Source: Bdellovibrionales bacterium RIFOXYD1_FULL_55_31 (GTDB lineage: Bacteria > Bdellovibrionota > UBA1018). From it: DNA of 64,000 nucleotides. Location of the stretch: NCBI GenBank assembly GCA_001770175.1, contig MEQK01000086.1:1521-65520 (forward strand), given 5' to 3'. The notes beneath the pieces were generated by a model that saw only the letters and a list, made by a program, of their open reading frames with translations, had not been told where the DNA came from and ran no database searches. The position numbers were made by a program, and so were the translations under genes. Numbering within the stretch: the first letter of the stretch is position 1; each line of letters opens with the position of its first letter. Shown piece by piece: positions 4,802 through 64,000 of the stretch.

Positions 4802-4835
4802 GCGATTCCGGGGCTGGACCATTTTTTCAAAAATC

Positions 4836-13575: not shown

Positions 13576-13643
13576 TCACTCAATTAGAAGCAAATAAGTG
13601 CGAATTGCTTTTTCATAACATGACTCCTTTCATGTGGATTTCC

Positions 13644-15125: not shown

Positions 15126-15182
15126 AGTTTAAGAAAAATTAAATCGCTCTGATCGCCTGAGCCTCGTAGCCTGACAGGTACG

Positions 15183-18486: not shown

Positions 18487-18564
18487 TACATTCTCCTTTT
18501 TTGCGAATTGGTATTCGCGAATTTAGCAAAATATGGGATCAAAAGCTATGTTTGGGGGTGGGTG

Positions 18565-19488
18565 ATGATTCGGTATAGGCGGTACGCGGCCATCGTGGCG
18601 GGGGCGTATTTATTTTTCGGCGCAATCTATATTCTCATTTCCGGTCAAATGGCGGCCGCGATTTCGAGTACAATCGGCGATTTCGCGAACATCGAGCGGA
18701 CCAAGGGAATCATTTTCATCGCATGCACCGCGATCGGGATTTATCTCTTTGTTTCTTGGCAGCTTCGCCTGGTGACCCGCGACGCCGCCGAACTTCTCCG
18801 GAATCGCGATTTTCTGCTCGCCTCCGAGCGAAAGACCTTGGCGAGTATTTTTGCGGTATCCATGGCGCATGATTCGAAGGACGCGATTGCGCCGTTGTTC
18901 GGGGTCATCGGGGAGCTCCGCGCGATCCGGCAAATGAGTGAAAGCGACCGCGCGAAGATCGCGGATCTCGAAAAAAGAGTTCATCAGCTTTTCGACAGGT
19001 TCGCGCGACTGAGTGAAGCGGGTCTGGGGAATCTTGCCGCGAAAAAAATGGAAGTCGAACTCGGAGCGTTGGTGAAAAGCACGATCGAGATGGCGAGGGG
19101 TAATCCGAAAGTCGCCGCGGTTTATCTTGAGTTGTCGACGCCTTCGCCGATCTGGATCACGGGCTACCCGACGTTGATCCATAAAATGCTGCTCAGTCTG
19201 CTCGATAACGCCGCCGAGGCGGCCGGAGTTCAGGGTAAAGTTGAAGTCAGACTCCGGCACGAGAATTCGTTGGTGACGTTCGAAGTTCACGACGATGGCC
19301 CGGGGGTTTTCCCGAATCATCGCGCGTTTATTTTTGAGCCATTCTTTACGATGAAGCAGGGTGCTCTTGGTTTGGGGCTTCTTGCCGTCAATACTTGCGC
19401 CGAAGCGCACCGCGGCCGCATCGAGATTTCCGAATCGGACCTCGGGGGGGCCTGTTTCAGAGTTGTATTTCCCGACGGGCGGGGCTGA
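18565..19488 (+). CDS. sensor histidine kinase (two N-terminal TM helices, HisKA-HATPase)
   Basis: Start ATG 18565 (track ORF begins 18352 but would overlap pgm). Two TM helices. H-box VSMAHDSKDAIAPL. HATPase boxes (LLDNAAEAAG; HDDGPGV; GLGLLAV). Confidence 0.75.
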   Translation: MIRYRRYAAIVAGAYLFFGAIYILISGQMAAAISSTIGDFANIERTKGIIFIACTAIGIYLFVSWQLRLVTRDAAELLRNRDFLLASERKTLASIFAVSMAHDSKDAIAPLFGVIGELRAIRQMSESDRAKIADLEKRVHQLFDRFARLSEAGLGNLAAKKMEVELGALVKSTIEMARGNPKVAAVYLELSTPSPIWITGYPTLIHKMLLSLLDNAAEAAGVQGKVEVRLRHENSLVTFEVHDDGPGVFPNHRAFIFEPFFTMKQGALGLGLLAVNTCAEAHRGRIEISESDLGGACFRVVFPDGRG

Positions 19489-19500: not shown

Positions 19501-21120
19501 CTAGAATAGTGTCTTCGGCTGATAATTAATGATGATCTGGTCCGTGTTGGCCAAGCTGAGGAGGAAATCCAGATCGGTGATGGTCAGAACCTTTCCGCTC
19601 ACGGTGAACTGAGACGGCAAGAGGACGGTCAGGGTTCCATCGGCGTGCTTGATCGCGACCGTCATTTCTTCGGTTGTTGTTGGCGCGCGTTGAAGCTGGA
19701 AAATGGCCTTCTTGTTCAAGATCGCCATCCCGATCGCGTCGAGCATGGGCGAGTAGTCGGGGTTGTCGATTTCCATCACGCTCGAGCCGTTGGCGACGAG
19801 ATTGCCGAGTTCAATGAATCGATCGGCGCGGTCGAGCTCGTTCGAACTGCGCTGAGTCCTGAGATTTTGGACTGAGGCCGCCGTGGAGGCCACGATGGAT
19901 ACCACGAAGTAATTCGGGTTCTCTGTCGCGCCCGTTTGGTCCAAGGTGTGGAAAAAGGTGTCGATCTGACCTTTGATGTCGGCGACCGGGACCAGCTTGG
20001 TTGGATCCGGGCATGACGGTACCGTGAAAGAAACCCCGTCGATCAATTTCGTGCAGGTCGCCGCATCGGTCGTATAGTAACTGTTCGCCAAGAAACCGGT
20101 GTAAGGCGCCGGAGGAATGATCATGGTCTGATCTTCTTCGTCTCCGACGAGAACAATGACTCGAAGGGAATCCTTTCGAAAGAACGCCGTAGGCGAACCG
20201 GCAACTTCATTATCAGCAAGGAGTTGTTGCAGGGAAGCGAGTCCACGTTCGTAACCGATTCCCGTCACACCCACGCTCAAATTGACAAGAAAGTCCTGGA
20301 TCAGACGCGCGGTCCACGCGGCATCGGTGGGGGTTCCGGCGGGGGGAATAGTGGCGATGATCGATCTTCCGGAGTGCACGGTATCGTTCATCGGCGTATT
20401 CACGCACTGACTGGCGCTCGTTTCGCCGGAGCCTGGATACGCACAGCGTTCCGGGCCGGTGTTTCCGGTTTGATCGTCACGTATGTAGCACTTTGAAACG
20501 TCAGTGGCGGAAATGAAAAGCGCATTTGCCTCATGGCAAAGCGCAATCATGGGGCCGTCGTGGTTGCCGGGAAGAAGCTTTGCCCAATTCGGGCCGAGTT
20601 GCGGTCTGCCTTGGTTCACCTTGAGTCCTGCCGTGAATTTGCCGTAGTCCGGGCTTGCCGGGTTCATGTTCACGAGATTGGGCGCCCAGGGGGGGTTCAC
20701 GAACGGAGTGCTTCGGCCCGGAATGCCGTTCGCGGTGATTCCGCGAAGGTAGCTTGACTGTGCTGGGCTGCCGACGGGGACCTGGTAGAGGTTGAGGTAA
20801 TTAGTAAATGCAGGGTGCGCAAGGTACGTATCCGTTGTGATCACCGCGACCCGGATATCCCAGTTTGGCTTCATGTATTTTTGCGCAAAACCACTGAAGC
20901 CATCCCGGATTCGCTGCTGAGAGACGTCCATGCTTCCGGAGTTGTCGATCACCCAGAGCATATCGAGCTTGGTGTTGATTTCCTGGCTCGTGGCGAAAAC
21001 TTCCTCTTGTTGCGCCAGGCGAAAGGAGCCTGGCAGTTGGCCTGTGCAGCCCGAAAGGAGATTGATCCCGATGATGCTAACTGAACAAATCACCAGTTTT
21101 TTCAAACACCTTATCGTCAT
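19501..21120 (-). CDS. von Willebrand factor type A domain lipoprotein
   Basis: Signal/lipobox (LLSGCTGQ). MIDAS motif LDMLWVIDNSGSMDVSQQRI (DxSxS) and later VAVITTDT. 539 aa. Confidence 0.7.
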   Translation of the reverse strand: MTIRCLKKLVICSVSIIGINLLSGCTGQLPGSFRLAQQEEVFATSQEINTKLDMLWVIDNSGSMDVSQQRIRDGFSGFAQKYMKPNWDIRVAVITTDTYLAHPAFTNYLNLYQVPVGSPAQSSYLRGITANGIPGRSTPFVNPPWAPNLVNMNPASPDYGKFTAGLKVNQGRPQLGPNWAKLLPGNHDGPMIALCHEANALFISATDVSKCYIRDDQTGNTGPERCAYPGSGETSASQCVNTPMNDTVHSGRSIIATIPPAGTPTDAAWTARLIQDFLVNLSVGVTGIGYERGLASLQQLLADNEVAGSPTAFFRKDSLRVIVLVGDEEDQTMIIPPAPYTGFLANSYYTTDAATCTKLIDGVSFTVPSCPDPTKLVPVADIKGQIDTFFHTLDQTGATENPNYFVVSIVASTAASVQNLRTQRSSNELDRADRFIELGNLVANGSSVMEIDNPDYSPMLDAIGMAILNKKAIFQLQRAPTTTEEMTVAIKHADGTLTVLLPSQFTVSGKVLTITDLDFLLSLANTDQIIINYQPKTLF

Positions 21121-21249: not shown

Positions 21250-23142
21250 TTAGGCCGCTTGTCCTTCACCAGGTTTTCTGAATGGAGGAGGCACGCTGAA
21301 AGGGGGTGGTATAACGACTTTTTCCGAGTGGGTGGGCTCGTAAGAGGAATAAGGCGTCTCGACAATGACCGGTTGTCCTTCAGATCCGATGTAGCCCGTC
21401 ACTTTGTACAGCTGAATCGGAGCGCTCTTCCCCTTGACCCGGACGCTTTGGCAAGCCTCGAAAATGAAGCGATCGCTGATTCGTTCGTAAACGTTTTGCG
21501 AGATGAGCAGGTCCGTGCCGTACTCTTTCGTGACCGATTCGACGCGTGAGGCGAGATTCGTGGAATCGCCGATCACGGTATATTCCATCTTTTCATCCGA
21601 CCCGATATTGCCGGCGATGACAGGCCCGGTGTTTAGACCCATGCCGATTTTGATCGGGTTCTGACCGCGCGACAGTCGAAGTTTGTTGAGCTTCGCAAGC
21701 TCCTCGCGCATTGCGAGGCATGCCCGGACCGCGTTGAAGGCATCGTCGGCATGTCCTATCGGAACACCCCAGAGCGCCATGATCGCATCCCCGACGTATT
21801 TATCGACGACTCCGCCGTAGCTTCGGATGATGCTCACCATGCGGGTCATGTACTCATTCAGCATTTCAACAACCTGCTCTGGTTCCAATGATTCGCTCAT
21901 GCCGGTAAAGCCGCGGATGTCGCTGAAGAAGATGGTCACTTCCTTACGTTCGCCGCCCAGGTTGACTGCGCCCGAAAGAAGCTTTTCAGCGATTTCCTTG
22001 TTGTGGAATTTATTGAAAACCTGCTTCACGCGATCGCGTTCGGCGAGGCCTTTGGCCATTTCGTTGAAGGCGAGGGCGAGCCTCGAGACTTCGTCACGGT
22101 TCTTTGGCCTCAGGTTCACGTCAAAATCGCCGCTCGCGATTCGTTGTGAAACGGCGACGAGTTGTTTGAGGGGCCAGGTGATTGTGCCGGAGTAGAGGTA
22201 GCCCGCCAGGAAGGCGAGCGAGAGAATCACCAGCCCGAGATACATCGATTTGTGCTCGACCCTTTTCGCGGCTTCGAAAGCTTTCGCTTCGGGCATCTCG
22301 GCGATCACACCGAGCCCTCCAAAGCCGACGAGATGAAAAGCCCCAAGCCGGGCGTCCTTGTTTTGAGGGTCGATGTACCGGGTTTGGCCGTTGCTCGACT
22401 TGCCAGATAGGAGTTGCTTCACGATCGGTAAGTATGAAACGTTTTCTCCTGCCGAGACGCGGCTTCCATCCGGATGAGCCAGGAGTTTGCCTTTGTAGTC
22501 CACCATGAAGCTCGTCACGAGATCGCTCTCGCCGAAAGCTTTCAAAAACCGATTCTGCCGCACGAGCGCGACCAGGAGATGAGTGAAATGGTCCCCTTGC
22601 TGGACAAAAGGGACGGCGATCGCGACGGCGGCACTCGAATCTTCGAGTTTAATCGTCGAAATCTGAACGGCTCCTTTGGCAACTTGGGGAATTGAGAGGT
22701 CCTTATCTCCCGCGATCGCGGTCAGGGCTTTCGCGCCGTCGCTATCTCCGAGATGCTGCATTTCGGGGGAGATGGCGCGTGATCGTACGGTCCAACCGCC
22801 CGCCGCCGACTGATACAGGTAAACGGCAAGGAAATCTTTGTCTTTGGCGAAGAATTCACGGACGATCGGGGTCTGGGATGGGGTGTTCGGCGTCGTTTCG
22901 AGGAGTGCTGTCCCGAGCACCCGCATTTTTTCGGTGATGCCGCCGAAGAGTTCCCTCATCTGGGTCGAAAGCCCGGCAGCCATATCCGCGTTCATGACTT
23001 GAATCAGACCCTTGTTGTCTTCGACAAACATGCGGGTCGAAATCAAGACGAGTGTCGTGATCGATCCCATGAGAAGAATCGCGATTAAAGCGATCAGTTT
23101 TGTTCCTACCGTCATTCCAAAAGGAGTTTTCAGCTTAGGCAC
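21250..23142 (-). CDS. class III adenylate/guanylate cyclase with extracytoplasmic sensor domain and HAMP
   Basis: N-terminal TM (LIALIAILLMGSITTLVLI), ~250 aa periplasmic region, second TM, HAMP-like segment (ITWPLKQLVAVSQRIASGDFDV). CHD motifs (VTIFFSDIRGFTGMSE; GDAIMALWGVP; GLNTGPVIAGNIG). Proline-rich C-terminal tail. Confidence 0.8.
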   Translation of the reverse strand: MPKLKTPFGMTVGTKLIALIAILLMGSITTLVLISTRMFVEDNKGLIQVMNADMAAGLSTQMRELFGGITEKMRVLGTALLETTPNTPSQTPIVREFFAKDKDFLAVYLYQSAAGGWTVRSRAISPEMQHLGDSDGAKALTAIAGDKDLSIPQVAKGAVQISTIKLEDSSAAVAIAVPFVQQGDHFTHLLVALVRQNRFLKAFGESDLVTSFMVDYKGKLLAHPDGSRVSAGENVSYLPIVKQLLSGKSSNGQTRYIDPQNKDARLGAFHLVGFGGLGVIAEMPEAKAFEAAKRVEHKSMYLGLVILSLAFLAGYLYSGTITWPLKQLVAVSQRIASGDFDVNLRPKNRDEVSRLALAFNEMAKGLAERDRVKQVFNKFHNKEIAEKLLSGAVNLGGERKEVTIFFSDIRGFTGMSESLEPEQVVEMLNEYMTRMVSIIRSYGGVVDKYVGDAIMALWGVPIGHADDAFNAVRACLAMREELAKLNKLRLSRGQNPIKIGMGLNTGPVIAGNIGSDEKMEYTVIGDSTNLASRVESVTKEYGTDLLISQNVYERISDRFIFEACQSVRVKGKSAPIQLYKVTGYIGSEGQPVIVETPYSSYEPTHSEKVVIPPPFSVPPPFRKPGEGQAA

Positions 23143-23304
23143 ACATCCCCCTGATGTGGTCTGTTCGGAATTTCTATTCCAAAGCCTGAGTCTTTATAGC
23201 GCTAGTCTTTATTCTCGACCGGGGGGGTGACGGGAGCTAACCCGGTGAATCGGGTCCAGATTTTCCAAAAGAATCGACCGGGTTTGACCGAAGAGTAAGA
23301 CGGC

Positions 23305-25314
23305 ATGGACTTAATCGCACCGAACCCATTGAATCGCCAATTCGAGGCGAAGACCCTCCTGGTCATTCTGCTCTGTTCAGGGCTGGCCGCCTTTGGTGGC
23401 TATCGACTCTATTCCGATCTCGATTCCGGCGGGTTGGTCCATCAAGGCAAAACGATGGCGAGAGTTGAGCGGCGCGAGGCAAGAGTACGGTACAAAACGC
23501 CCGCGAGTTTTGTATGGGAAACGGTCGAACAGGATCAAAGTCTTTATGAGCACGAGTCGGTTCAGACCGGCCACGCAAGCGCCGCGGTGATCCGCATGAG
23601 CGGCGGAGCCACTCTTGAGCTGGGCGAAAACAGCCTGATCGTTCTGAACGAAGTCGACAATCTCGCGCTCAACTTCGTGAAAGGATCGGCGGTCGTGCAC
23701 GAGTCTTCGGGCGATCGTCAGATCAGCATGAGCAAGGACGGCAAGGTGAGCGTCGAAAAGCTCAATATCCGCCTGCTCAATCCCGGTCCGCTGGCCGAGT
23801 ACTTCGTTTCGGGCGGCGAGGCGAAGTCGATTCAGTTCGAATGGGACAAGCCGGGTGAGTTTTTCGTCGAGGTTTCCAGGGATCGGACATTCAGCGCCGC
23901 GCGAACCGATCGGATTCCCGCGGATGCGGGCAAGAAAACTTTTGCGGCCAAGTCTCTCGCCGTAGGCAATTATTATTGGCGGGTGACCGGAGCCGAGGGG
24001 ACGCATAGCCAGGTCCGGGCTCTCCGTGTTTCGACGGCATCGCCGCTTCAGCTCCTGAGTCCCTCCGCGATGGAGAGAGTCCGTGCTTTTGGCGACGTCG
24101 CGGATCTGCAATTTCGTTGGATGCCTTCTCAGACCAGTCTTGCGACGAATCCCGATGTCCGGCATCAGCTGGAGATTTCGGCCGATCCGGCTTTCAAGAA
24201 GGTCGAGGAAACGCAAGACGTGTTCCCGAACAGTGGGAACGCAATTGTCCGGACCGCGGCTTCCGGCAGTCTTTTTTGGAGGATCAGAAGTCATTACGGA
24301 GATCTGGTTCTTTCGAGCCCGGTTGAGAAGTTCACGCTGGAGCGAACGGATAAGGTGCTCCTCGAACTGCTGCGACCGGCCGAGAATGATCAGCTGGCTC
24401 TCGGAGCTCCGGTTCGCTTTACCTGGAACGCGAATGCCGGTGATCTCGAGTACGCGTGGGAAATTCAGGATTCTAAAGGTACCCGGCTCGCGACTTCGAA
24501 GGGACCTGTTCCGGGTACTCTCTGGAAGGACACCGGCCCTGGGGCTTATCGCTGGCGCGTCGTCGCGTCGTGGAACGGGAAATCCGTCGGCGAGTCCTCC
24601 TGGCGCCCGTTCTCGATTTCGAGCGGAAGTCCTCTCGTTCTCTTGACCCCGGCCAAAGACGAGAAGTTTGTTTTTTGGGAAAAGGAATTGCCGCTCTCCT
24701 TTCGTTGGCAAAAGGACGCGCTTCTTGAGCGACCCGAATATTCCTACGTTATCGAAGTCGCGGCTGATCGCGAATTCAAAGGAACGCTCTTGACGAAGAC
24801 CTCCCGCGCTCCGCAGCTGGCCGAAGCGACGATTCCGCCCTCGGCTATTCCCGATGAGCCGCGGGCCTTCTTCTGGAAGGTGAAGGTCACCGATTCCTCC
24901 GGAAAAATCGTGAAAACGAGTGAACCTCTTTCCTTCTTCTATGGACGGTACCCCAGGCTTGCCGCGCCTCAGTCGGTGATGCCCGCGGCGATTTTCAATC
25001 TTCGTGACGATAAAAAGGTTCCCCTCATCGAGTGGGCAGCCGTCGAGGGTGCGAAGGGCTATGAGGTTTCGGTCTTCCGGATCGAGCCCAAAAATAATGG
25101 ACGCGGACCGGCCGCTGAGCAGGTCATTGTGAAACAGCTCGTTCCGGACGCGAAATTCGAGTTTTCGAAGCTCCCGGTCGGAAAGTATCACTGGAATGTC
25201 CGCGCGCTGGACCGGATCGACCGCCCCGGGCAGCCCAGCGCTCGCGGAGAGTTCGAGGTCAGTTACGGAAAACCCCTGCGCGCGCCCAAAGTTCGCAGCG
25301 CCGAGGTGCAGTAG
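23305..25314 (+). CDS. membrane-anchored FecR-domain protein with ~5 tandem Trp-containing Ig/FN3-like repeats
   Basis: N-terminal TM/signal anchor (LLVILLCSGLAAFGGYRLY). FecR-like block (SGGATLELGENSLIVLNEVDNLALNFVKGSAVV). Repeats each carrying a conserved aromatic-W motif (YYWRV, LFWRIRS, AYRWRVVA, FFWKVKV, YHWNVRA). A paralog occurs at 62720. Confidence 0.55.
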   Translation: MDLIAPNPLNRQFEAKTLLVILLCSGLAAFGGYRLYSDLDSGGLVHQGKTMARVERREARVRYKTPASFVWETVEQDQSLYEHESVQTGHASAAVIRMSGGATLELGENSLIVLNEVDNLALNFVKGSAVVHESSGDRQISMSKDGKVSVEKLNIRLLNPGPLAEYFVSGGEAKSIQFEWDKPGEFFVEVSRDRTFSAARTDRIPADAGKKTFAAKSLAVGNYYWRVTGAEGTHSQVRALRVSTASPLQLLSPSAMERVRAFGDVADLQFRWMPSQTSLATNPDVRHQLEISADPAFKKVEETQDVFPNSGNAIVRTAASGSLFWRIRSHYGDLVLSSPVEKFTLERTDKVLLELLRPAENDQLALGAPVRFTWNANAGDLEYAWEIQDSKGTRLATSKGPVPGTLWKDTGPGAYRWRVVASWNGKSVGESSWRPFSISSGSPLVLLTPAKDEKFVFWEKELPLSFRWQKDALLERPEYSYVIEVAADREFKGTLLTKTSRAPQLAEATIPPSAIPDEPRAFFWKVKVTDSSGKIVKTSEPLSFFYGRYPRLAAPQSVMPAAIFNLRDDKKVPLIEWAAVEGAKGYEVSVFRIEPKNNGRGPAAEQVIVKQLVPDAKFEFSKLPVGKYHWNVRALDRIDRPGQPSARGEFEVSYGKPLRAPKVRSAEVQ

Positions 25315-26984
25315 TGCGCGCCTTTATCGTGCTCATGGCTGTTTTGGTTTTTCCCGGTTTGGTCCATGCGAAATCGGTCGTTCTCGAATGGGAGCCGATC
25401 GAGGGTGCCGCGCAATATGATCTGAAGATCACACAAAAGGGGAAATCGATTCTTTCAAAATCGGTCGAAAAACCGAAGTGGAACGGATCCCTTCAGCCGG
25501 GACTCTATTCATGGCAACTCAGAGCCGTGGATCGGCTTAATAACCCGGGCGATTGGAGCGAAATTTCGAGTCTGGTGGTGCTTGCGCCCGCGCCGGAACC
25601 TCTCCTCCCGGAAGATGGCGAGAAATTCGTATTTTACGACCACGGCAAACGCACGCTTTTACGTTGGCAGGAGGTGTCCGGGGCCTCGGCCTACGCGGTC
25701 GAGGTTTTTCGAGGAAAGGACAAAATTTATTCATCGCTCGTGCGGAACGGGACGGAACTCGATCTCGGGGCGCTTGCGCCAGGCGACTACCGATGGAATC
25801 TGAAATCGGTGATCTCAGGCAACGAAGAAGGGGAGCGCAAGTGGGAGGGGAAGCCGAGCAGCCCGCGGGAATTCACAATCGTTCACGCCGCGCTCGAGCG
25901 GCCTCTCCCGGTCTTTCCGAAAGGTCCGATCGTGTCTCAGTCGGCAAAAGTGACCTTTAGCTGGAAGAAAGTCGAGGGTGCTGAAGGCTACGAACTCCGG
26001 CTTGTCAGAAAGCTCGAGGGGCAGGACCGGGCAGTGGCCAGTGATCTCGGCGTTTCCAATCCGCTCATTGTCAAGGAGAACACGGCTACGCTCGACCTCA
26101 TCGCCATTTCGAAGCTGAAGGGCAAGGGAACGATCGATGGCCAGTACGTCTGGCAAATTCGGGCACTCGCCAGTCTTGAAAAAGGTTCATCGATGGTAAC
26201 CGGGCCCGGCGCAATTACCGAGTTCATGGTCGATCACGCGAGCTATGGCCAGGGCGCGGGATTTGTCGCGCTTTCTTCGATCTTCGCGCCGTTTTCGTAT
26301 CAGATCATCAGCCCGCTCAGCGGTTATCGGGGGACCACTCAATCGACTGCCCTGACGGGGCGCTTGAGCGCGGAATACTGGCCGCGCCCGCGCGTCGCGA
26401 GCGGCGGGACACCCGGCTTGGCGAAGTGGGGGGTAGCTTCGGGGTTTGAAATGACGGGCATCACCTTCAATAACCAGAACTACGGCCGGCTCTCGTTTGA
26501 ACTCCTCGGAAAGTATCAGATCCCGCTCACGTCCAGCCGTTACGGCTGGGTTCTTTCGCCGAAGGCCGGGGTCGAAGGGCGCCAGTATCTTTCTTTGACA
26601 CCGGTCACGGGCGTGAGCCCGCTGAAGGTCGAGGCAACGACCCTGATGGCTCTGGGCGCGACGATCGGGCTGGATGTTCGCAAGCAGTTCTCGGCGCGCT
26701 GGAGTTTGGGGACGAAGTTCAGCTATTTCAGGCCGCTTTCGTTGTCTGGTGTCGCGGGAGCGGCGATCTCGCCCGAGGCCTCGTATCGTAATCTTAGCTT
26801 CGGCGCGCTTTGCATTTACTGGCTCACTCCTGACATTGGTCTGAGCGGCGGTACCTTTCTCGAGAAACGATCGATCAGTTATCTCCCCGTCGCCTCTGCC
26901 GCGCGCCCTCAGCCCCAGGCCGAGCAGGTCTATACGGACGGTTCATATTTTTACGGGAGTGTGATCTTCAATTTCGGGCGTTAG
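25314..26984 (+). CDS. secreted protein with Trp-containing Ig/FN3-like repeats and C-terminal putative beta-barrel-like domain
   Basis: GTG start overlapping the stop of the upstream gene (TAGTG at 25312-25316). Signal peptide (AFIVLMAVLVFPGLVHA). Repeats with YSWQLRA, YRWNLKS, YVWQIRA. C-terminal ~250 aa Gly/Ser/aromatic-rich alternating region ending ...GSVIFNFGR. Confidence 0.5.
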   Translation: MRAFIVLMAVLVFPGLVHAKSVVLEWEPIEGAAQYDLKITQKGKSILSKSVEKPKWNGSLQPGLYSWQLRAVDRLNNPGDWSEISSLVVLAPAPEPLLPEDGEKFVFYDHGKRTLLRWQEVSGASAYAVEVFRGKDKIYSSLVRNGTELDLGALAPGDYRWNLKSVISGNEEGERKWEGKPSSPREFTIVHAALERPLPVFPKGPIVSQSAKVTFSWKKVEGAEGYELRLVRKLEGQDRAVASDLGVSNPLIVKENTATLDLIAISKLKGKGTIDGQYVWQIRALASLEKGSSMVTGPGAITEFMVDHASYGQGAGFVALSSIFAPFSYQIISPLSGYRGTTQSTALTGRLSAEYWPRPRVASGGTPGLAKWGVASGFEMTGITFNNQNYGRLSFELLGKYQIPLTSSRYGWVLSPKAGVEGRQYLSLTPVTGVSPLKVEATTLMALGATIGLDVRKQFSARWSLGTKFSYFRPLSLSGVAGAAISPEASYRNLSFGALCIYWLTPDIGLSGGTFLEKRSISYLPVASAARPQPQAEQVYTDGSYFYGSVIFNFGR

Positions 26985-29077
26985 ATCGGCGCGGGATACT
27001 CGACGCGAACTTGTTCGGTGACGAATTCCCCTTTTGAATTACTGAATTTGACGGAATAGTCATATATCCCGTTCTCGGTGAGAACATCCCTCGTACCGGT
27101 TCTGGTCGCGTTCAGGGTTACGGAAATTTCGTCGTTCGTGACTTTTTGTCGATAGACCCTGATCGTTTCGGCATTTGCGATATACGGCCATTGAAGATGA
27201 ACAGTGTTGTCATCCCGTGTGGCCGTAACATTACTCGTCGCCTCGCTCTCCGGTGCTTCGATCGGAGGCGGGATCCTGTAAACACGAACGGTATTTTTCA
27301 GCGCCGAGTCTGAGGCTTCATTAGAGAAACTGATATAAAGCTTGTCGTTTCGAATGAAAACGTGCGATCCGCTTTCGAGCGGATTGGGCAAAAGGAACCG
27401 TTCGACCGTCCCGTTAGCTGAGTTCAATCGAACAAGTTCGGCGCGGTTGCTACCACTGCCTTGAAACAGATAGACCCGGTCCTCGTCGTCGACGAAGAGG
27501 TTAGTCGATGATGAATCGACAGTCCATTCGCTCGGATCGGTAGTGATCGTACCAGTTGTGATGTTGTCGAAAGCAAAAGCTTTGAGTTGTTTGGTGTCGG
27601 ACCCGACGGTTCCGAGAACATAGATTTTACTGAACGTGTCGATGGCTGTGTCGGAAACATTGGAAAAAGCAGCCCCAATCACGGACTTTGCGCTCGCGTG
27701 CACGGATCCGTTGAAGATCGTCCCATTCACTATGTTCATGGCGAAATAGGGCAGATTAAATGCATTTGACTCCAACGTCAAAAGATCGGAACCGAGGGTT
27801 GCTCGATTCAGAATTTCGTCCGACATTTCGAAAACTCGCGGCCCGTTCAGTCCATCCGCGTCGCTGCCGAAAATTTTCGAACCGAAGGTGGTAGGAAGAG
27901 AGCCGGGCTGACTGGGTCTTTCGAAGTTGTTCCAAACCGTGTTAAATCCGAAAAACGTCGTGTCAGGCCACTCGGGGTGAAGCTTAGTCATGTCATAACG
28001 AAGCATCCAATGGCGGTTCCAGTCCGTTACATAGAGCTTTTCGAGTTCATTGACGAAAAGTCCTCCGCCGGCGTTGGCTGTACCGGGAGCGCCGAAAAAG
28101 AATCGATCTTTCCAGGGTGCTTCAGTCGCGCCCTCGAATTGTCCTGTGAGTGCCAGGCAGCTCCCCTCGTGCTTCAGGCAAGTCACTTCGGTATCTCCGA
28201 CCTTGATTCTGAGCGGGGTCGATATCGAACCGCCGCTATTCGTGGCCGTAACTGTATAAACAGCTTGATCGACTGGCCCACTCGGGGTTCCGGAAATCAC
28301 CCCCGTCGTGCTGTCCAGGGTGATTCCCGGCGGCAGAGGCGGCGCTACTGAATAGGAATCGATCCCGATCGAGTATACAGGCGCCGTGGCAGTTGGGTGA
28401 TTGGCCGGGAATGTTGCCCCTTTGAGGTAGACTGCCCATGAATATTCGTAACTCAGCGCTGAAGGAGGGATCTCCTTTACGAGAAGGCTGAGGCTTTTTT
28501 GAAAGGAGCCGCCGGAGTTGACGGCGGTCACGGTAAAGACTTGCTCTTTCAGGGCCACAGTCGGCTTGCCCGAGAGAACCCCGGTACTCGCATCAAAGAC
28601 GATTCCGGCGGGAGGTGCCGGGCTGATGAGATAAGTAATTACGGCGCCTCCGCTCGGAGCGGTCGGTCCAACGGCGGTCATCGCGACTTCCCGATTCAGC
28701 ACGATCGTGCTTGGAAAGGTGAACTCCGGCGGGCGATCTACGACCGTAATCACGGTTTCACTGATCGATCCCGCCGCGTCCGTGACCCGAATGGTAGCGG
28801 TACCGAGTGAGCTCGTGGGCGCCGTGAAAATTCCGTCTTCGGTGACTTCGCCCAGTCCGGAGATCTTTGAATATTTGAACGGCGCCGCGCCTCCGATCGT
28901 CTGGAGCGTCATGCTTTGACCGACGGTGATCCGGGTGCTGGGTGAACTGATGGTCACGCCCATGCTTTCCCAAACGATGTCGGCGTTGAAGCAGGCGGGC
29001 AGGAACAGGAGCATCGCTCCAGAGGCCAGAACTCGGCGCAAAAGCAGGATATGATCACTGCGCAGCAAACGGACCAT
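26981..29077 (-). CDS. large secreted protein with putative-Ig (He_PIG-like) repeats and C-terminal beta-rich region
   Basis: Signal peptide (GAMLLFLPACFNA). Multiple motifs of the type PPLPPGITLDSTTGVISGTPSG / PAGIVFDASTGVLSGKPT characteristic of He_PIG putative Ig domains. 698 aa. Confidence 0.55.
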   Translation of the reverse strand: MVRLLRSDHILLLRRVLASGAMLLFLPACFNADIVWESMGVTISSPSTRITVGQSMTLQTIGGAAPFKYSKISGLGEVTEDGIFTAPTSSLGTATIRVTDAAGSISETVITVVDRPPEFTFPSTIVLNREVAMTAVGPTAPSGGAVITYLISPAPPAGIVFDASTGVLSGKPTVALKEQVFTVTAVNSGGSFQKSLSLLVKEIPPSALSYEYSWAVYLKGATFPANHPTATAPVYSIGIDSYSVAPPLPPGITLDSTTGVISGTPSGPVDQAVYTVTATNSGGSISTPLRIKVGDTEVTCLKHEGSCLALTGQFEGATEAPWKDRFFFGAPGTANAGGGLFVNELEKLYVTDWNRHWMLRYDMTKLHPEWPDTTFFGFNTVWNNFERPSQPGSLPTTFGSKIFGSDADGLNGPRVFEMSDEILNRATLGSDLLTLESNAFNLPYFAMNIVNGTIFNGSVHASAKSVIGAAFSNVSDTAIDTFSKIYVLGTVGSDTKQLKAFAFDNITTGTITTDPSEWTVDSSSTNLFVDDEDRVYLFQGSGSNRAELVRLNSANGTVERFLLPNPLESGSHVFIRNDKLYISFSNEASDSALKNTVRVYRIPPPIEAPESEATSNVTATRDDNTVHLQWPYIANAETIRVYRQKVTNDEISVTLNATRTGTRDVLTENGIYDYSVKFSNSKGEFVTEQVRVEYPAPI

Positions 29078-29237
29078 AGTTTTAATTATAGTAGTTTCGC
29101 CAGCGTACGTCAGTGCGTCCTTCGTGACATTCTGGCTGATTTCAAAGGCTTTTTGAGAGGTTGTATTTCAGTTGAAAATTGCGCGACGCAACAACGTGTG
29201 GTATTCGGGTGGCATCCAACGGGTCACGGGGGTGAAC

Positions 29238-60717: not shown

Positions 60718-62733
60718 GTGATGCTCGTATGGAAGTTGGTTGAATTCATAGAAAATGTTAGTGAAAATGGCGGAATGGAGCAACATCAATTTAAGCTTTC
60801 TTTGACCGTGGGAACCAAGCTCCTTATCGGCGGGGTTCTGCTGCTGGTCATGGTGATCGGATTTTTGAATTTTTCGGCCATTTTTCTGCTGAAAGAAGAC
60901 AAAAAAGCCTACGTTTACGAGTCCCAGGCCAGAGAGTCTGTGCTTGCTGGTCGGGGATTCGCGAATTCGATCCGGCGTGTATTGGACACCTTGCGCCTTT
61001 CACTCGCCGCCATCGATCCTGCAAAACTCGGCTCAGGTACGCAGGAAACCGCTCAGTCGCTCTTTAGCTCCGAAAAGCGTTTGCTGCAGCCTATTGCTGA
61101 AAATCAGTCGGATGTTCCGGTCATTTCGCTAGGCCTTTTCAGGCCTGAAACCGGGGCTGCGATTTCGGCGATTCAGGTTTTCAACAAAAGAGCCGTTGAG
61201 GAGGCAGAGCTGAAGGTTCCCGAGAATATGATGGGGACTATTCCGGCTGAGTCGATCAAGGAAGTGAGTCCTGAGCTTACGGCCAAAGGATATGCTTTCC
61301 TGAACCTCTCGAAAATCGGCGAGGCCCCCGTGCTTGGCGTGATCGCCGCTGATACGAAGTTTCGTGCCGGTGCCCAGGGACTTCCGGTCGCGATCGGTTT
61401 TGTTCCGATGCAGGAGTTTGTAAAACAACTGGCCGGCATGAATATGACCATCGCGACCCGGTCGGGACGCGTGCTCTTTGACTCGGACCCGGCGGTCTTC
61501 TTTACGGTCAGTAATATCGGCGGAGATCCTCTCTTCCAGGCCGCTCTGGGAAGCCAGCTCTCCTCGGGCGCCGTTGAATACGAACTGGCGAATGTTCGCT
61601 ACCTGGGGAGCTACCTCAACACCGGGCTTGACCTCGTTGTCACGAATCGGATGCCGTGGCAGAAAGCAATGAAGGCGACCTATGCCTTGACCGAGAAGTT
61701 TGTTCTCCTCGGCCTGATGGCGGTTGCCGTCGCCGTGATTTTCACGATCCTGTTTTCGAAGACGCTGACCGCGCCGATCAACCGGCTTTATCTGGCGACA
61801 CAGGAAGTCGCGAAGGGAAATTTCAAACTGAATCTGAAAGCCCAGAGCCGTGACGAGATTGGCGCCTTGACGTCGTCCTTCAACGTCATGTCGGAGCAGA
61901 TCAGCGAGCTGATTCAGGAAAAAATGCGGAAGATCCAGATCGAGAACGATCTGGCGATCGCGGCTACCGTGCAGCAGACGCTGATTCCTCCAGCCGCATT
62001 TGTCGGAGACAGACTGCGAATTCAGAGTCTCTACCAATCGGCTGACGAATGTGGCGGTGACTGGTGGGGTTTTTTCGGAGCTGGCGACAAGATGGCGATC
62101 ATGATCGCGGACGCGACGGGACATGGTTTGCCCTCAGCCTTGATCACGGCTTCGGCTCGAAGTTGTTTCAGCGTTCTCAGCAAATTCGCGCAAGACGACC
62201 CGAAGTTCAGTTTTTCGCCCAAGGAGATGCTCGCCTACGCCAATCGCGTGATTTACGATGCGTCACAGGGTAAAATCATGATGACCTTTTTCGCCGGAAC
62301 GATCGATTTTTCGGCTATGACTTTGACCTACGCGAGCGCCGGGCACACGCCGCCCTGGCTTTTCCGAAAAGAAGGGGCTTCGCACGCGCTGAAGAGCCTG
62401 GTTTCACGGGGCGTCCGCCTCGGTGAAGTCAGGGATTGCGACAATTTTGACGAAAAGGTCGAACCGCTTCGCAAGAACGATATTCTCTTCCTCTACACCG
62501 ACGGACTGCTCGAGGGCACGAACAAGGAAGGCGTCATGTACGGGAAAAAGAGGGCTCGTGAGCTTTTCGAACGGACGCTGATCGGGGCCACGGAGAACCC
62601 GCTCGAGCGCGTGATCGAAGACCTGAAAAAGGATTTCATGCTTCACAACACTGGCAAATCACTTGATGACGATCTCACGCTGGCTGCCATGATGATCGAT
62701 CCTGAGGGCCCCGGGGGCTATGCAAAGGTTTGA
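60718..62733 (+). CDS. membrane sensor PP2C-family serine phosphatase (extracytoplasmic domain, HAMP, SpoIIE/RsbU-like PP2C)
   Basis: TM (LLIGGVLLLVMVIGFL), ~290 aa periplasmic region, second TM, HAMP (NRLYLATQEVAKGNFKLNL), PP2C motifs (GGDWWGFF; IADATGHGLPSALI; LYTDGL). True start may be ATG 60775. Confidence 0.8.
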   Translation: MMLVWKLVEFIENVSENGGMEQHQFKLSLTVGTKLLIGGVLLLVMVIGFLNFSAIFLLKEDKKAYVYESQARESVLAGRGFANSIRRVLDTLRLSLAAIDPAKLGSGTQETAQSLFSSEKRLLQPIAENQSDVPVISLGLFRPETGAAISAIQVFNKRAVEEAELKVPENMMGTIPAESIKEVSPELTAKGYAFLNLSKIGEAPVLGVIAADTKFRAGAQGLPVAIGFVPMQEFVKQLAGMNMTIATRSGRVLFDSDPAVFFTVSNIGGDPLFQAALGSQLSSGAVEYELANVRYLGSYLNTGLDLVVTNRMPWQKAMKATYALTEKFVLLGLMAVAVAVIFTILFSKTLTAPINRLYLATQEVAKGNFKLNLKAQSRDEIGALTSSFNVMSEQISELIQEKMRKIQIENDLAIAATVQQTLIPPAAFVGDRLRIQSLYQSADECGGDWWGFFGAGDKMAIMIADATGHGLPSALITASARSCFSVLSKFAQDDPKFSFSPKEMLAYANRVIYDASQGKIMMTFFAGTIDFSAMTLTYASAGHTPPWLFRKEGASHALKSLVSRGVRLGEVRDCDNFDEKVEPLRKNDILFLYTDGLLEGTNKEGVMYGKKRARELFERTLIGATENPLERVIEDLKKDFMLHNTGKSLDDDLTLAAMMIDPEGPGGYAKV

Positions 62734-64000
62734 ACTGAAAAACTGGGAGAAGGCTCTTGTCGCCTTTTCCACCGTTCTTTTCTGCCTGTCGGCAACCGTC
62801 TATGCGACGAACTTTCCGTTGTGGAAATATTTTTACGGTTATGACACGGAAACCGAACGGGAGAAAATCGGACGGCTTTCTACGAAACAGGGGACCGTTC
62901 GTCGCGAAATCCTCGGCGAAGCGGAGTTCAAGTTCATCGATCTGGAAGCCGCGCTGTACGATCAGGACACGATTGTCACCGGCTCCGGGAGTGTCGCTCA
63001 TCTGGAACTCGATGAAGGTAACACGATCGAGCTTGGGGCGAATGCGATGGTTCGGCTCGCGTTCGAGTCGCAGCTATCGTTCGGTCGAATCGCGCGGACG
63101 CCCCGGATCGATGTCGTGGCCGGAGCGGTCGTTGGACGCGCGAAGAAGAAGCCCATGATTATCCGGTCGGGGCAAAAGACGATTGAAATCGCCAAGGACG
63201 CGACGCGGGTACTCGAACCGCTCCCGCCGCCCATCCCATCCCCCGTTCCCCGGCCGCTCCCTTCGCCGAGTCCTTCGGCGAGCCCGTCTCCGCTTCCTTT
63301 GCCGAGTCCATCAGCGAGCCCGTCTCCGCTTCCTTTGCCCAGTTCTTCAGCGAGTCCGTCTCCAGTTCCGCCCGCCTTTTCCCTAAGACGACTGGAGGTC
63401 ATTTCACCGCTTCCGGGCGCGTCGTTCGGCGTAAAGAAGTGGAGCCCAACGCAGGAAGTTCCCGTCCGGTTCGAGTGGAAAGTCGACCCGCCCGACGTTT
63501 CTTTGTTGCTGGCGATCAGAGCAGCCGGGCGCGGCAAGTCGTTGCACGAAGAAGTCGTGCCAGCGCGGCGGGGCAAAGCCAGTTTCGTCTGGATCGCGCG
63601 TAAGCCCGGAAATTTCGAATGGGAGCTTCTGACCTCCAAACGCGAGCGTCTTACTTTCGGCGAGAAGAAGGCCGAGTTTGTGATCCCGCCTGAATTCGAG
63701 GGCATTCAGATTTTAAGTCCGCTGATCGCGGGTGAAAGTACGGCTTCCAATCTCATCAAAGACCGCGTGTTGAAGAAGTCCTTGGAGATCACGTTGCGAT
63801 GGCAACCCCTCCCAGGAATCCGGGAATACCGTATTGAAATCGCGAAAACCACTGGAGGTAAGCCTGACCTGGTGGATGAAACCGAGAATCCGAGTTTCAC
63901 GCTCGTTCGAGAAAAAATCATCAACTCGGGGCGGATCTTTTATCGGGTGAGCGCGGAGCTGGAGAATGGATTCATCGCCGTCTCGGAAACCAATCCGTTC
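62720..64000 (+). CDS. FecR-domain protein with Pro/Ser-rich linker and Trp-containing Ig/FN3-like repeats (5' partial; continues beyond window end)
   Basis: ATG at 62720 overlaps the last 14 nt of the PP2C gene in another frame. Signal peptide MQRFELKNWEKALVAFSTVLFCLSATVYA. FecR-like block TIVTGSGSVAHLELDEGNTIELGANAMVRLAFE, paralogous to the 23305 gene. Repeats with FEWKV, FEWELL, IFYRVSAELENG. Absent from the ORF track because no stop occurs before position 64000. Confidence 0.6.
   Translation, partial: MQRFELKNWEKALVAFSTVLFCLSATVYATNFPLWKYFYGYDTETEREKIGRLSTKQGTVRREILGEAEFKFIDLEAALYDQDTIVTGSGSVAHLELDEGNTIELGANAMVRLAFESQLSFGRIARTPRIDVVAGAVVGRAKKKPMIIRSGQKTIEIAKDATRVLEPLPPPIPSPVPRPLPSPSPSASPSPLPLPSPSASPSPLPLPSSSASPSPVPPAFSLRRLEVISPLPGASFGVKKWSPTQEVPVRFEWKVDPPDVSLLLAIRAAGRGKSLHEEVVPARRGKASFVWIARKPGNFEWELLTSKRERLTFGEKKAEFVIPPEFEGIQILSPLIAGESTASNLIKDRVLKKSLEITLRWQPLPGIREYRIEIAKTTGGKPDLVDETENPSFTLVREKIINSGRIFYRVSAELENGFIAVSETNPF
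63266..63370 (+). repeat. 36-nt tandem repeat (x~3) encoding PSPSASPSPLPL linker
   Basis: CCGAGTCCTTCGGCGAGCCCGTCTCCGCTTCCTTTG at 63266, a near-identical copy at 63302 and a diverged partial copy at 63338. Confidence 0.7.

What the first reader, a model, noticed from the sequence alone, without database searches (positions are those of the whole stretch)
21250..26984. Divergent module: periplasmic-sensor class III cyclase facing a translationally coupled pair of repeat proteins (FecR-anchor + Trp-motif Ig/FN3 repeats; repeats + C-terminal barrel-like domain)
The cyclase at 21250-23142 has a TM-flanked ~250-aa extracytoplasmic domain and a HAMP segment ahead of a canonical CHD catalytic domain. 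Transcribed the other way is a membrane-anchored protein whose first globular unit is FecR-like (LELGENSLIVLNEVDN...GSAVV), a fold normally seen in sigma-regulator periplasmic sensors. It is followed by about five ~90-aa repeats with an invariant aromatic-Trp motif. Its stop overlaps the GTG start (TAGTG at 25312-25316) of a second secreted protein with three to four of the same repeats and a Gly/Ser/aromatic-rich ~250-aa C-terminus that ends with FNFGR. This end is not a clear OMP signature. The arrangement suggests a two-protein envelope-spanning surface or sensing complex coupled to cNMP signalling. A paralogous FecR-repeat gene recurs at 62720. I do not recognise these repeats as a named family.
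Basis: partly seen in the sequence, partly recalled or inferred. Interest (0 to 1): 0.6.

Follow-up and report, generated by a model that had tools for sequence, protein, structure and literature searches.

The report
Envelope-spanning accessory pair for a cyclase
A predatory-bacterium-type genome (Bdellovibrionota) carries a strictly conserved, uncharacterised three-gene unit in which an inner-membrane FecR-like protein and an outer-membrane barrel protein, linked by eight fibronectin-like domains, probably connect the outer membrane to a membrane-bound cAMP-making sensor enzyme.

Summary
The coordinates 21250-26984 hold three genes. The first is a TM / dCache-like sensor / TM / HAMP / class IIIb adenylate cyclase on the minus strand. 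Protein A is a divergent, N-terminally anchored FecR-like protein with 5 repeats. Protein B is translationally coupled to A (TAGTG) and has a signal peptide, 3 of the same repeats and a 250-aa C-terminal domain.

- The repeats are divergent FN3-type beta-sandwiches.
- The C-terminal domain is an OmpA/OmpW-clan outer-membrane beta-barrel. This rests on family-level Pfam hits, a beta-signal-like end and amphipathic strands.
- The trio is conserved in layout in every Bdellovibrionota locus with enough DNA. It also occurs as a same-strand operon in distant spirochaete-like relatives.
- A and B exist as natural single-chain fusions in other organisms.
- FecR-plus-repeat partners accompany the same sensor-HAMP input module whether the output is a cyclase, a PP2C phosphatase (second copy at 60718-64000) or a histidine kinase.

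Best reading: a periplasm-spanning accessory that relays an outer-membrane or envelope cue to the cyclase's sensor domain. The signal and all protein contacts are inferred, not shown. All members are annotated "hypothetical", and I found no paper on this module. I rate it a new variant of FecR-type or NsrA-type trans-envelope signalling.

The parts
21250..23142 (-). Membrane-bound class IIIb adenylate cyclase: TM1 (23041-23097), dCache-like periplasmic sensor (22249-23040), TM2 (22192-22248), HAMP (22045-22191), catalytic domain (21421-21945)
   Evidence: Pfam gives Guanylate_cyc 1.1e-28, HAMP 7.9e-13, and weak dCache_1/dCache_3. dCache_1 matches 6 of 14 family members, best 1.2e-6. Hydropathy gives the two TM segments. 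The closest solved catalytic domains are Cya2 (2W01) and CyaB (3R5G), about 1e-41; the Lys448/Thr522 pair indicates ATP.
23143..23304 (.). Divergent intergenic region between the cyclase and gene A (162 bp)
   Evidence: The layout is conserved in Bdellovibrionota loci. No sigma-70-like promoter was found by the simple scan.
23305..25314 (+). Protein A (669 aa): 16-aa cytoplasmic tail, signal-anchor helix (23353-23409), FecR-like domain (about 23452-23799), five FN3-like repeats (23818-24027, 24103-24294, 24406-24618, 24673-24936, 25003-25260)
   Evidence: The AlphaFold2 model has pLDDT 75.6: helix 8-41, then all-beta domains. Foldseek matches chains of Ig/FN3 domains at E 1e-13 to 1e-16. FecR matches the same position in all relatives.
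25303..25316 (+). Translational coupling signal: GAGG Shine-Dalgarno inside A's last codons, with the TAG stop overlapping the GTG start of B (TAGTG)
   Evidence: In 9 of the 10 Bdellovibrionota-type loci examined the stop and start overlap or lie 0-4 nt apart, behind a conserved GGAGGTGCA(A/G)TA(A/G). No start was resolved for the tenth (L013).
25314..26984 (+). Protein B (556 aa): signal peptide (25314-25370), three FN3-like repeats (25365-25577, 25632-25880, 25929-26231), C-terminal outer-membrane beta-barrel domain (about 26241-26981)
   Evidence: There are 100 cluster representatives with this C-terminal domain, and all 62 members of 500-620 aa have 3 repeats. OMP_b-brl_2 and OMP_b-brl match at family level. 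Foldseek returns only OM barrels. Amphipathic strands are present. A beta-signal-like end is conserved.
60718..62733 (+). Second, paralogous input module: TM / periplasmic sensor / TM / HAMP / PP2C (SpoIIE) phosphatase
   Evidence: Pfam gives SpoIIE 7.4e-36 and HAMP 6.2e-13. It is 30% identical to the cyclase over the proximal sensor half, TM2 and HAMP, E 6e-16.
62720..64000 (+). Protein D (cut by the window end; full length 548 aa): anchor, FecR-like domain, Pro-rich linker, three of the same repeats, no barrel
   Evidence: Its start overlaps the PP2C gene end by 14 nt. The next gene in the full contig is a convergent TatA.

Best explanation
The three genes encode one trans-envelope signalling unit.

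B is inserted in the outer membrane by its C-terminal beta-barrel and hangs three FN3-like domains into the periplasm. A is held in the inner membrane by an N-terminal signal-anchor. Its FecR-like domain sits next to the membrane, and its five FN3-like domains reach outward to join B end to end. Together they form a chain of eight beta-sandwich domains from outer to inner membrane.

The membrane-proximal part of A (anchor plus FecR-like domain) contacts the dCache-like sensor/TM/HAMP input of the cyclase. A change at or in the outer membrane would then be passed through HAMP to the catalytic domain and change cAMP synthesis. That change could be ligand binding to the barrel, loss or strain of the tether, or a change in envelope spacing.

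Shown by computation:
- the domain architectures and topology signals;
- the FN3 and barrel assignments;
- strict gene linkage and translational coupling;
- the A-B fusions;
- association of the FecR-repeat partner with the input module regardless of output.

Inferred: the A-B contact, the A-cyclase contact, the direction of signalling, the nature of the signal, and the product being cAMP.
For: 1. Linkage.
- Divergent cyclase | A | B is found in 7 of 7 Bdellovibrionota genome loci with enough DNA and in L001.
- L023, L024, L026, L028 and L029 show the same layout as far as each contig reaches.
- The order cyclase, A-like, repeat-plus-barrel-like protein occurs on one strand in L002, L003 (a Treponema MAG) and L004.
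- Flanking genes are not conserved, so the trio is a self-contained unit.

2. A-B coupling.
- Stop and start overlap or lie 0-4 nt apart, with a conserved SD inside A's last codons.
- Single-chain A-B fusions exist: P0032 (1171 aa, 8 repeats) and P0035 (1084 aa, 6 repeats). P0035 has six cluster members from several assemblies.
- Repeat totals are constant at 5+3 in the window and nine other loci, and at 8 in the P0032 fusion.

3. Topology.
- A has only 16 residues before its single hydrophobic helix.
- B has a cleavable signal peptide with an invariant Lys at +1.
- The barrel is supported.

4. The partner follows the input, not the output.
- The window's second copy pairs a FecR-repeat protein with a sensor-HAMP-PP2C whose proximal sensor, TM2 and HAMP are 30% identical to the cyclase's.
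- L016, L030 and L037 also pair with PP2C. L031, L033 and L035 pair with histidine kinases.

5. Precedent.
- FecR's periplasmic domain receives a signal from an outer-membrane protein (PMC9249621).
- CHASE2 adenylate cyclases cluster with FecR-domain proteins (PMC9239204).
- In S. meliloti those cyclases need the OM barrel NsrA (PMC13001267).
Against: - There is no experimental or structural evidence for any of the proposed contacts.
- The B model is poor (pLDDT 38), so the barrel rests on family-level sequence evidence and weak fold matches.
- B's end (F-G-R) is not the canonical terminal Phe that other OMPs of this organism have.
- Repeat totals are not universal: 6 in P0035 and 3+1 in L004.
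- D has no adjacent barrel gene, and an orphan B paralogue exists without A or a cyclase. The barrel partner is therefore not obligatory for every FecR-repeat protein.
- No cAMP receptor gene lies nearby.
- Divergent gene order alone would also fit plain co-regulation.
Confidence: 0.6

Rival explanations
1. Mechanical or 'ruler' version. The eight-domain FN3 chain is a fixed-length tether between the two membranes. The cyclase reads tension in it or rupture of it, for example on prey or surface contact, osmotic change of periplasm width, or outer-membrane damage. It does not read a chemical ligand.
For: - The number of repeats is conserved (5+3 in ten loci, 8 in the fusion P0032).
- The barrel is small and has no recognisable ligand-binding or plug domain.
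- From general knowledge, FN3 chains are classical force-bearing elements, and eight domains of about 3.5 nm roughly match periplasm width.
- The lineage is Bdellovibrionota.
Against: - This is pure inference, and no data here bear on force.
- P0035 has 6 repeats and L004 has 4.
- The sensor is dCache-like, a fold that usually binds small ligands.
Confidence: 0.2
2. There is no signalling link. A and B form a structural envelope tether or adhesin that is merely co-regulated with the cyclase, or is a target of it, through the shared divergent promoter region.
For: - The divergent arrangement suits shared regulation.
- Neighbouring genes in the window encode other surface-type proteins: He_PIG, FG-GAP and a MIDAS-like lipoprotein.
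- An orphan B paralogue exists.
Against: - Neighbouring surface genes are not conserved with the trio.
- In distant relatives the genes are overlapping same-strand operons with the cyclase first.
- FecR-repeat partners track the shared sensor-HAMP module across three unrelated outputs. That is hard to explain by regulation through cAMP.
Confidence: 0.12
3. Classical cell-surface signalling. A is a FecR-type anti-sigma factor that is cleaved and controls an ECF sigma factor, and the cyclase is incidental.
For: The FecR-like domain sits at the right membrane-proximal position.
Against: - The cytoplasmic tail is only 16 aa, whereas E. coli FecR has about 85 (PMC9249621).
- Pfam matched no sigma-factor, TonB-dependent-receptor or other FecR-associated family on any protein scanned at the locus.
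- There is no Gly-Thr dipeptide in aa 40-170 of A (read directly from the sequence).
Confidence: 0.03
4. B is an autotransporter-like surface protein. Its FN3 repeats, and in the fusions the whole FecR-FN3 chain, are exported through or beside the barrel and displayed outside the cell.
For: - A C-terminal barrel of about 250 aa preceded by repeats resembles type V architecture.
- The NalP translocator appears among the weak fold matches.
Against: - There is no Pfam Autotransporter hit; the hits are to the OmpA/OmpW-type OMP_b-brl families.
- Only about 10 residues and no helical linker lie between repeat 3 and the first predicted strand.
- Split A has no barrel of its own and keeps an uncleaved-looking anchor.
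Confidence: 0.05

Closest known systems
FecA-FecR-FecI cell-surface signalling (E. coli; PupB-PupR, FoxA-FoxR in Pseudomonas)
   Same: A bitopic inner-membrane protein with a periplasmic FecR-family domain links an outer-membrane beta-barrel protein to a cytoplasmic output (PMC9249621).
   Different: - There is no anti-sigma N-domain (16-aa tail), no ECF sigma, no TonB-dependent transporter or STN domain, and no Gly-Thr self-cleavage motif.
- Pfam matched only the FecR family (PF04773) on A, and no other FecR-associated domain.
- The gap between the membranes is bridged by eight FN3-like domains split over two proteins.
- The output is a separate sensor-HAMP cyclase.
CHASE2 adenylate cyclases with FecR-domain and outer-membrane partners (Campylobacterota cluster; S. 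meliloti CyaD1/CyaD2/CyaK with NsrA and SMc02177)
   Same: A class III membrane cyclase is genetically linked to a FecR-domain protein (PMC9239204, PMC5498481). An outer-membrane barrel is required for signal perception (PMC13001267).
   Different: - The sensor here is dCache-like plus HAMP, not CHASE2.
- There is no TPR protein or phosphodiesterase in the cluster.
- The FecR protein carries five FN3 repeats.
- The barrel protein carries the same repeats and is translationally coupled to A, and in some organisms fused to it.
LIC11435 family (NCBIfam NF047756, Leptospira predicted outer-membrane protein)
   Same: The third-gene products of the spirochaete-like relatives match its N-terminal half (E 3.5e-17 to 7e-9). 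Window B matches its first repeat weakly (5.4e-6).
   Different: All scores are far below the family cut-off of 380 bits. B's C-terminal domain does not match it. The family itself has no known function and appears only in a reverse-vaccinology list (PMC5348505).
SiaA-type HAMP-PP2C phosphatases (SiaABCD partner-switching, Pseudomonas)
   Same: The window's second module has the same TM-sensor-TM-HAMP-PP2C build, with a STAS-like gene beside it. The cyclase's sensor-HAMP part gives a weak SiaA hit (9.5e-10).
   Different: The score is far below the SiaA cut-off (37.6 versus 700 bits). As far as I know, no FecR-repeat partner has been described for SiaA.

Membership tests
Class III adenylate cyclase (subclass IIIb) | Catalytic domain matches PF00211 above the curated cut-off | tested here: met
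   100.5 bits against a cut-off of 21.9, aa 400-574.
Class III adenylate cyclase (subclass IIIb) | Two metal-binding Asp residues, and transition-state Asn and Arg | tested here: met
   D408, D452, N529 and R533 are located by motif and by alignment to 2W01 and 6FHT.
Class III adenylate cyclase (subclass IIIb) | Adenine-specifying Lys with Thr (IIIb) rather than the Glu/Gly-type pair of guanylate cyclases | tested here: met
   K448 aligns with the Glu of the guanylate cyclase Cya2 (2W01), which is Lys in the engineered AC 6FHT. T522 lies in EYTVIGD. Product specificity itself was not measured.
FecR-type anti-sigma factor (cell-surface signalling) | Periplasmic FecR domain (PF04773) | tested here: inconclusive
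   A alone gives 16.3 bits against a cut-off of 24. The same region matches in all relatives, with L002's above the cut-off (29.3 bits) and L030/L031 at 1e-9 to 4e-9. It is homologous at family level and below threshold for this protein.
FecR-type anti-sigma factor (cell-surface signalling) | Cytoplasmic N-terminal anti-sigma domain of about 85 aa that binds an ECF sigma factor | tested here: not met
   Only 16 residues precede the hydrophobic helix. No sigma-factor family matched any protein scanned in the window.
FecR-type anti-sigma factor (cell-surface signalling) | A partner TonB-dependent transporter with an STN signalling domain, and a further FecR-associated C-terminal domain | tested here: not met
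   No such Pfam hits appear on A, B or the neighbours. FN3-like repeats follow the FecR domain instead.
FecR-type anti-sigma factor (cell-surface signalling) | Gly-Thr self-cleavage site in the periplasmic domain (PMC9249621) | tested here: not met
   No GT dipeptide occurs in aa 40-170 of A (sequence).
Fibronectin type III / Ig-like beta-sandwich repeats | Beta-sandwich fold of about 90-100 aa in tandem | tested here: met
   The AF2 model of A has pLDDT 75.6 and all-beta units. Foldseek matches tandem Ig/FN3 chains at E down to 5.6e-16.
Fibronectin type III / Ig-like beta-sandwich repeats | Sequence match to fn3 (PF00041) with its conserved core residues; by my own recollection of the FN3 pattern these are a strand-B Trp, a strand-C Tyr and a strand-F Y-x-aromatic-x-V-x-A | tested here: inconclusive
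   fn3 matches 7 of 49 B-family members at E <= 0.05, best 1.7e-5. PDB FN3 domains match at 9e-4 to 0.06. Window A and B themselves have no fn3 hit above threshold. The motif positions were read from the alignments.
Outer-membrane beta-barrel (Pfam OMP_b-brl / OMP_b-brl_2, OmpA/OmpW-like) | Sequence match to the barrel families | tested here: inconclusive
   Window B itself has no hit. 25 of 49 relatives match OMP_b-brl_2 (best 2.3e-6) and 10 of 49 match OMP_b-brl (2.5e-6). P0008 gives 0.0041.
Outer-membrane beta-barrel (Pfam OMP_b-brl / OMP_b-brl_2, OmpA/OmpW-like) | Closed antiparallel barrel of amphipathic strands | tested here: inconclusive
   The AF2 model has about 10 long strands but pLDDT 38. 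All top-50 Foldseek matches are OM barrels, but E is no better than 4.6e-4 and rmsd is large. A period-2 hydrophobic pattern is present and there is no TM helix.
Outer-membrane beta-barrel (Pfam OMP_b-brl / OMP_b-brl_2, OmpA/OmpW-like) | Signal peptide and a C-terminal beta-signal ending in an aromatic residue | tested here: inconclusive
   A signal peptide is present. The motif G-S-h-h-Y-x-F is conserved in 55 members, but a further 2-4 residues follow it in 48 of them (F-G-R in the window) and only 7 end at the aromatic residue.
dCache sensor domain | Match to dCache_1, dCache_2 or dCache_3 above the cut-off | tested here: inconclusive
   The window cyclase gives dCache_3 at 0.0079 and dCache_1 at 0.035, both below the cut-offs. 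6 of 14 family members match dCache_1, best 1.2e-6.

The most novel reading that the evidence does not exclude
The FecR-FN3 chain plus barrel is a physical tether of defined length between the outer and inner membranes, and it works as a mechanosensor. dCache-like/HAMP receptors read pulling, slackening or breakage of the eight-domain chain, for example on prey attachment or envelope deformation. They convert this into cAMP, or in paralogous modules into PP2C or histidine-kinase signalling. This would be a general, previously unrecognised way for diderm bacteria to sense envelope mechanics.
Probability: 0.15. Interest if true: 0.85.

Novelty: new variant of a known kind. Interest (0 to 1): 0.6.

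Why it matters
How diderm bacteria carry information from the outer membrane to cytoplasmic second-messenger enzymes is known for only a few systems: FecA/FecR/FecI, RcsF/IgaA and NsrA/CHASE2 cyclases.

This module offers a compact, genetically self-contained case. It has three genes, no conserved neighbours and natural fusions. It lies in a lineage of predatory or predator-related bacteria whose cAMP signalling is essentially unexplored.

The same FecR-plus-FN3 accessory accompanies one sensor-HAMP input fused to a cyclase, a PP2C phosphatase or a histidine kinase. That suggests a reusable 'outer-membrane antenna' for dCache-type receptors. It also assigns a testable role to about 100 protein clusters now labelled hypothetical.

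Tried and rejected
- Structure prediction of B with a 2-sequence alignment gave pLDDT 38.
- Profile searches of the B and A families against PDB sequences found only weak FN3 hits. Nothing matched the barrel or the FecR region.
- Promoter and terminator scans of the divergent region and of the 3' end of B were uninformative.
- Literature searches for this module returned nothing specific. The terms were FecR with cyclase, Bdellovibrio with cyclase and FecR, LIC11435, and FecR domain with HAMP.
- I considered and rejected a classical anti-sigma role for A and an autotransporter reading of B (see rivals).
- I tested whether the orphan B paralogue P0009 is the missing barrel partner of D, using similarity to the PP2C-coupled fusion P0035. 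The result was not decisive.
- I looked for a nearby cAMP receptor or phosphodiesterase and found none. An HD-domain protein at 1215-2582 is 20 kb away.

Full report
**1. What is in the sequence**

Cyclase, 21250-23142, minus strand, 630 aa:
- Hydrophobic segments at aa 16-34 and 299-317 enclose about 264 extracytoplasmic residues.
- A HAMP domain (Pfam E 7.9e-13) and a class III catalytic domain (E 1.1e-28) follow.
- The extracytoplasmic part gives only weak dCache_3 and dCache_1 hits. dCache_1 recurs in 6 of 14 members of the sensor family, best E 1.2e-6, so I call it dCache-like.
- The closest solved catalytic domains are Cya2 (2W01) and P. aeruginosa CyaB (3R5G), at about 1e-41.
- The catalytic set is complete: D408, D452, N529, R533 and K572. 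The specificity pair is Lys448/Thr522, the class IIIb adenylate-cyclase pattern. cAMP as product is inferred from these residues and was not measured.

Protein A, 23305-25314, plus strand, 669 aa:
- It has a 16-residue tail and a single hydrophobic helix at aa 17-35. AlphaFold2 extends this to a helix spanning 8-41.
- A beta-rich region at aa 50-165 matches Pfam FecR.
- Five beta-sandwich repeats follow.
- The FecR match is sub-threshold for A itself (E 0.013). The same position matches in every relative scanned, once above the curated cut-off. More distant members match at 1e-9 to 4e-9.

Protein B, 25314-26984, 556 aa:
- It starts at a GTG that overlaps A's TAG (TAGTG), with GAGG 7 nt upstream.
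- It has a signal peptide (VHA|KS), three repeats and a 250-aa Ser/Gly/aromatic-rich C-terminal domain.

**2. The repeats**

- A profile built from the repeats finds 5 in A and 3 in B. All 62 B-type proteins of 500-620 aa have 3.
- The A model (pLDDT 75.6) matches chains of Ig/FN3 domains in the PDB at E down to 5.6e-16.
- Family members hit Pfam fn3 (7 of 49, best 1.7e-5) and several Ig-like families.
- A family profile hits solved FN3 domains weakly, at 9e-4 to 0.06.
The upstream 'x-W' and 'A-x-x-Y-E' would correspond to the strand-B Trp and strand-C Tyr. This mapping rests on my recollection of the canonical FN3 pattern, set against the alignments.

The repeats are therefore a divergent FN3-like subfamily. 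That is a generic scaffold fold, not a family with a known function of its own.

**3. The C-terminal domain of B**

An exhaustive HMMER scan of 1.84 billion representatives found only 100 clusters with this domain. Nearly all have the same architecture of signal peptide, 3 repeats and C-terminal domain.

Evidence that it is an outer-membrane barrel:
- OMP_b-brl_2 matches 25 of 49 members (best 2.3e-6) and OMP_b-brl matches 10 of 49 (2.5e-6).
- The family alignment shows period-2 hydrophobicity in 8-10 segments and no TM helix.
- The AlphaFold2 model is poor (pLDDT 38) but contains about ten long hairpin strands. Every one of its top-50 Foldseek matches is an OM barrel, including OmpA, OmpW, NspA, Pla, a COG4313 channel and NalP. 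The E-values are weak.
- A conserved end, MDGxYFFGSxIYSF, resembles a beta-signal.

The last aromatic residue is followed by 2 residues (G-R or G-K) in 37 of 55 members, and is terminal in 7. Other OMPs of this organism end in a terminal Phe. I put the barrel assignment at about 85%.

**4. Conservation of the trio**

- Relatives found through A (only 6 hits in 5.8 billion proteins) all sit beside a HAMP cyclase. L001 has the same divergent layout. L002, L003 (a Treponema MAG) and L004 have the order cyclase, A-like, repeat-bearing third gene on one strand.
- Relatives found independently through B in 185,579 species genomes were nine loci, all Bdellovibrionota. All seven with enough upstream DNA have divergent cyclase | A | B.
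- A metagenome scan added L023, L024, L026, L028 and L029. Each shows the same layout as far as the contig reaches. L029's third gene has 3 repeats but did not match my barrel model.
- Only these three genes are conserved; the flanks are not. The cyclase is 54-63% identical across the loci, A 33-41% and B 29-41%.
- The A stop and B start overlap or lie 0-4 nt apart in 9 of the 10 Bdellovibrionota-type loci examined, with a conserved GGAGGTGCA(A/G)TA(A/G). No start was resolved for L013.

**5. Fusions**

Two cluster representatives are single-chain A-B fusions with anchor, FecR domain, repeats and barrel:
- P0032, 1171 aa, 8 repeats.
- P0035, 1084 aa, 6 repeats.

The P0035 cluster has six members from several assemblies, so this fusion is not a one-off error. 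A chain that begins at an inner-membrane anchor and ends in an outer-membrane barrel places all the repeats in the periplasm. It also argues that the split proteins join end to end.

Repeat totals are 5+3 in the window, L007, L008, L011-L014, L023, L024 and L029, and 8 in P0032. They are 7+1 in L002 and L003. Exceptions are P0035 with 6 and L004 with 3+1.

**6. The partner follows the input module**

- The window holds a second pair: a TM-sensor-TM-HAMP-PP2C phosphatase (60718-62733), whose end is overlapped by the start of protein D (62720 onward). D has an anchor, a FecR domain, a Pro-rich linker and 3 repeats. Its full length is 548 aa and it has no barrel.
- The phosphatase and the cyclase share 30% identity across the membrane-proximal sensor half, TM2 and HAMP (E 6e-16).
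- The P0035 fusion sits divergent to a sensor-HAMP-PP2C rather than a cyclase. L030 and L037 are further PP2C cases.
- In L031, L033 and L035 a FecR-plus-Ig protein precedes the same sensor-HAMP fused to a histidine kinase.

One accessory type accompanying one input type across three unrelated outputs is the strongest argument that A acts on the periplasmic/TM/HAMP side of the receptor. It argues against A being merely co-expressed with cAMP signalling.

**7. Mechanism proposed, and what is shown or inferred**

*Shown by computation:* the architectures, topology signals, fold classes, linkage, coupling, fusions and output swapping.

*Inferred:*
- B's barrel sits in the outer membrane with its repeats in the periplasm.
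- A's repeats join B's.
- A's anchor and FecR domain contact the cyclase's sensor and TM region.
- An outer-membrane or envelope cue changes cAMP synthesis.

The cue is unknown. A ligand at the barrel (as with FecA or NsrA) and a mechanical or spacing signal through the fixed-length FN3 chain are both open.

*Rejected:*
- A classical anti-sigma role. The tail is 16 aa, there is no sigma factor and no TonB-dependent receptor, and there is no Gly-Thr site (PMC9249621).
- An autotransporter reading. There is no helical linker and no Autotransporter hit.

**8. Comparison with what is known**

The logic resembles FecA-FecR-FecI signalling (PMC9249621). It also resembles the CHASE2-cyclase clusters that include a FecR-domain protein (PMC9239204, PMC5498481) and, in S. 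meliloti, depend on the OM barrel NsrA (PMC13001267).

It differs in four respects:
- the sensor type (dCache-like plus HAMP);
- the FN3 chain split over two proteins;
- a dedicated barrel that carries the same repeats;
- the absence of sigma, TPR and phosphodiesterase partners.

The third-gene products of the spirochaete-like relatives match the N-terminal half of the uncharacterised Leptospira LIC11435 family, far below its cut-off.

All public copies are named 'hypothetical protein'. No paper in the searchable library describes the module.

**9. Origin**

Protein D is 100% identical to a protein of the MAG 'Bdellovibrionales bacterium RIFOXYC1_FULL_54_43'. The window's G+C content of about 55% fits that name.

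**10. Verdict**

- It is a new variant of a known kind of system.
- Interest is 0.6. The module is well defined, conserved, uncharacterised and directly testable. Its logic has precedents, however, and every protein contact is still inferred.

Noticed in passing
window 59253-60703 (-), beside 60718-62733: A STAS-like protein (154 aa, Pfam STAS 5.9e-4) and a 324-aa protein with no confident family lie divergent to the sensor-HAMP-PP2C gene. The layout recalls partner-switching systems such as SiaABCD.
   Followed up: partly
L021 10001-11626 and L022 2481-4106 (protein P0009; cluster member P0108, tag A2428_15180, is from the same MAG that matches window protein D): This is an orphan B-type paralogue with signal peptide, 3 repeats and barrel, 53% identical to B's barrel. 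It has no A-like or cyclase gene beside it; a TIG/CUB/PKD protein lies divergent. It might serve the barrel-less protein D, but a similarity test was not decisive.
   Followed up: partly
L004 12454-13536 and L017 3762-4514: A PilZ-domain protein (E 5.5e-10 and 5.8e-6) follows the module in two distant relatives. It is absent from the window's locus. PilZ usually binds c-di-GMP, so its link to a cyclase module is unexplained.
   Followed up: no
L029 3766-6900 (-): In this locus the orthologous cyclase ORF is 1045 aa and carries a C-terminal GYF_2 domain (1.5e-16). A GYF_2 match also appeared in one member of the cyclase set that includes the similarly long L014 ORF. The window's cyclase ends in a short Pro-rich tail instead.
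   Followed up: no
window 12460-16904: A YcaO-domain protein (12460-13497, E 2e-11), a GNAT acetyltransferase (13644-14384) and a B12-binding radical SAM protein (15183-16904) lie close together. This may be a peptide-modification cluster.
   Followed up: no
window 19501-21120 (-), 26981-29077 (-), 29172-30593 (+): The module is flanked by other surface-type proteins: a lipoprotein with weak MIDAS-adhesin/CglD hits, a He_PIG Ig-domain protein whose stop overlaps B's stop by 4 nt (convergent), and an FG-GAP repeat protein. None is conserved next to the trio in other genomes.
   Followed up: yes
window 18352-19488 (+) versus L006 2498-3478: The longest ORF for the HATPase_c protein (378 aa from an upstream ATG) overlaps the phosphoglucomutase gene end. 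The near-identical contig was called with a shorter 326-aa product, so the true start is probably internal.
   Followed up: no
window 4656-7151 (+), 35933-37672 (-): The window is rich in other envelope sensors. There is an sCache/dCache_2-HAMP-PAS hybrid histidine kinase and a methyl-accepting chemotaxis protein. Neither has a FecR-repeat neighbour.
   Followed up: no
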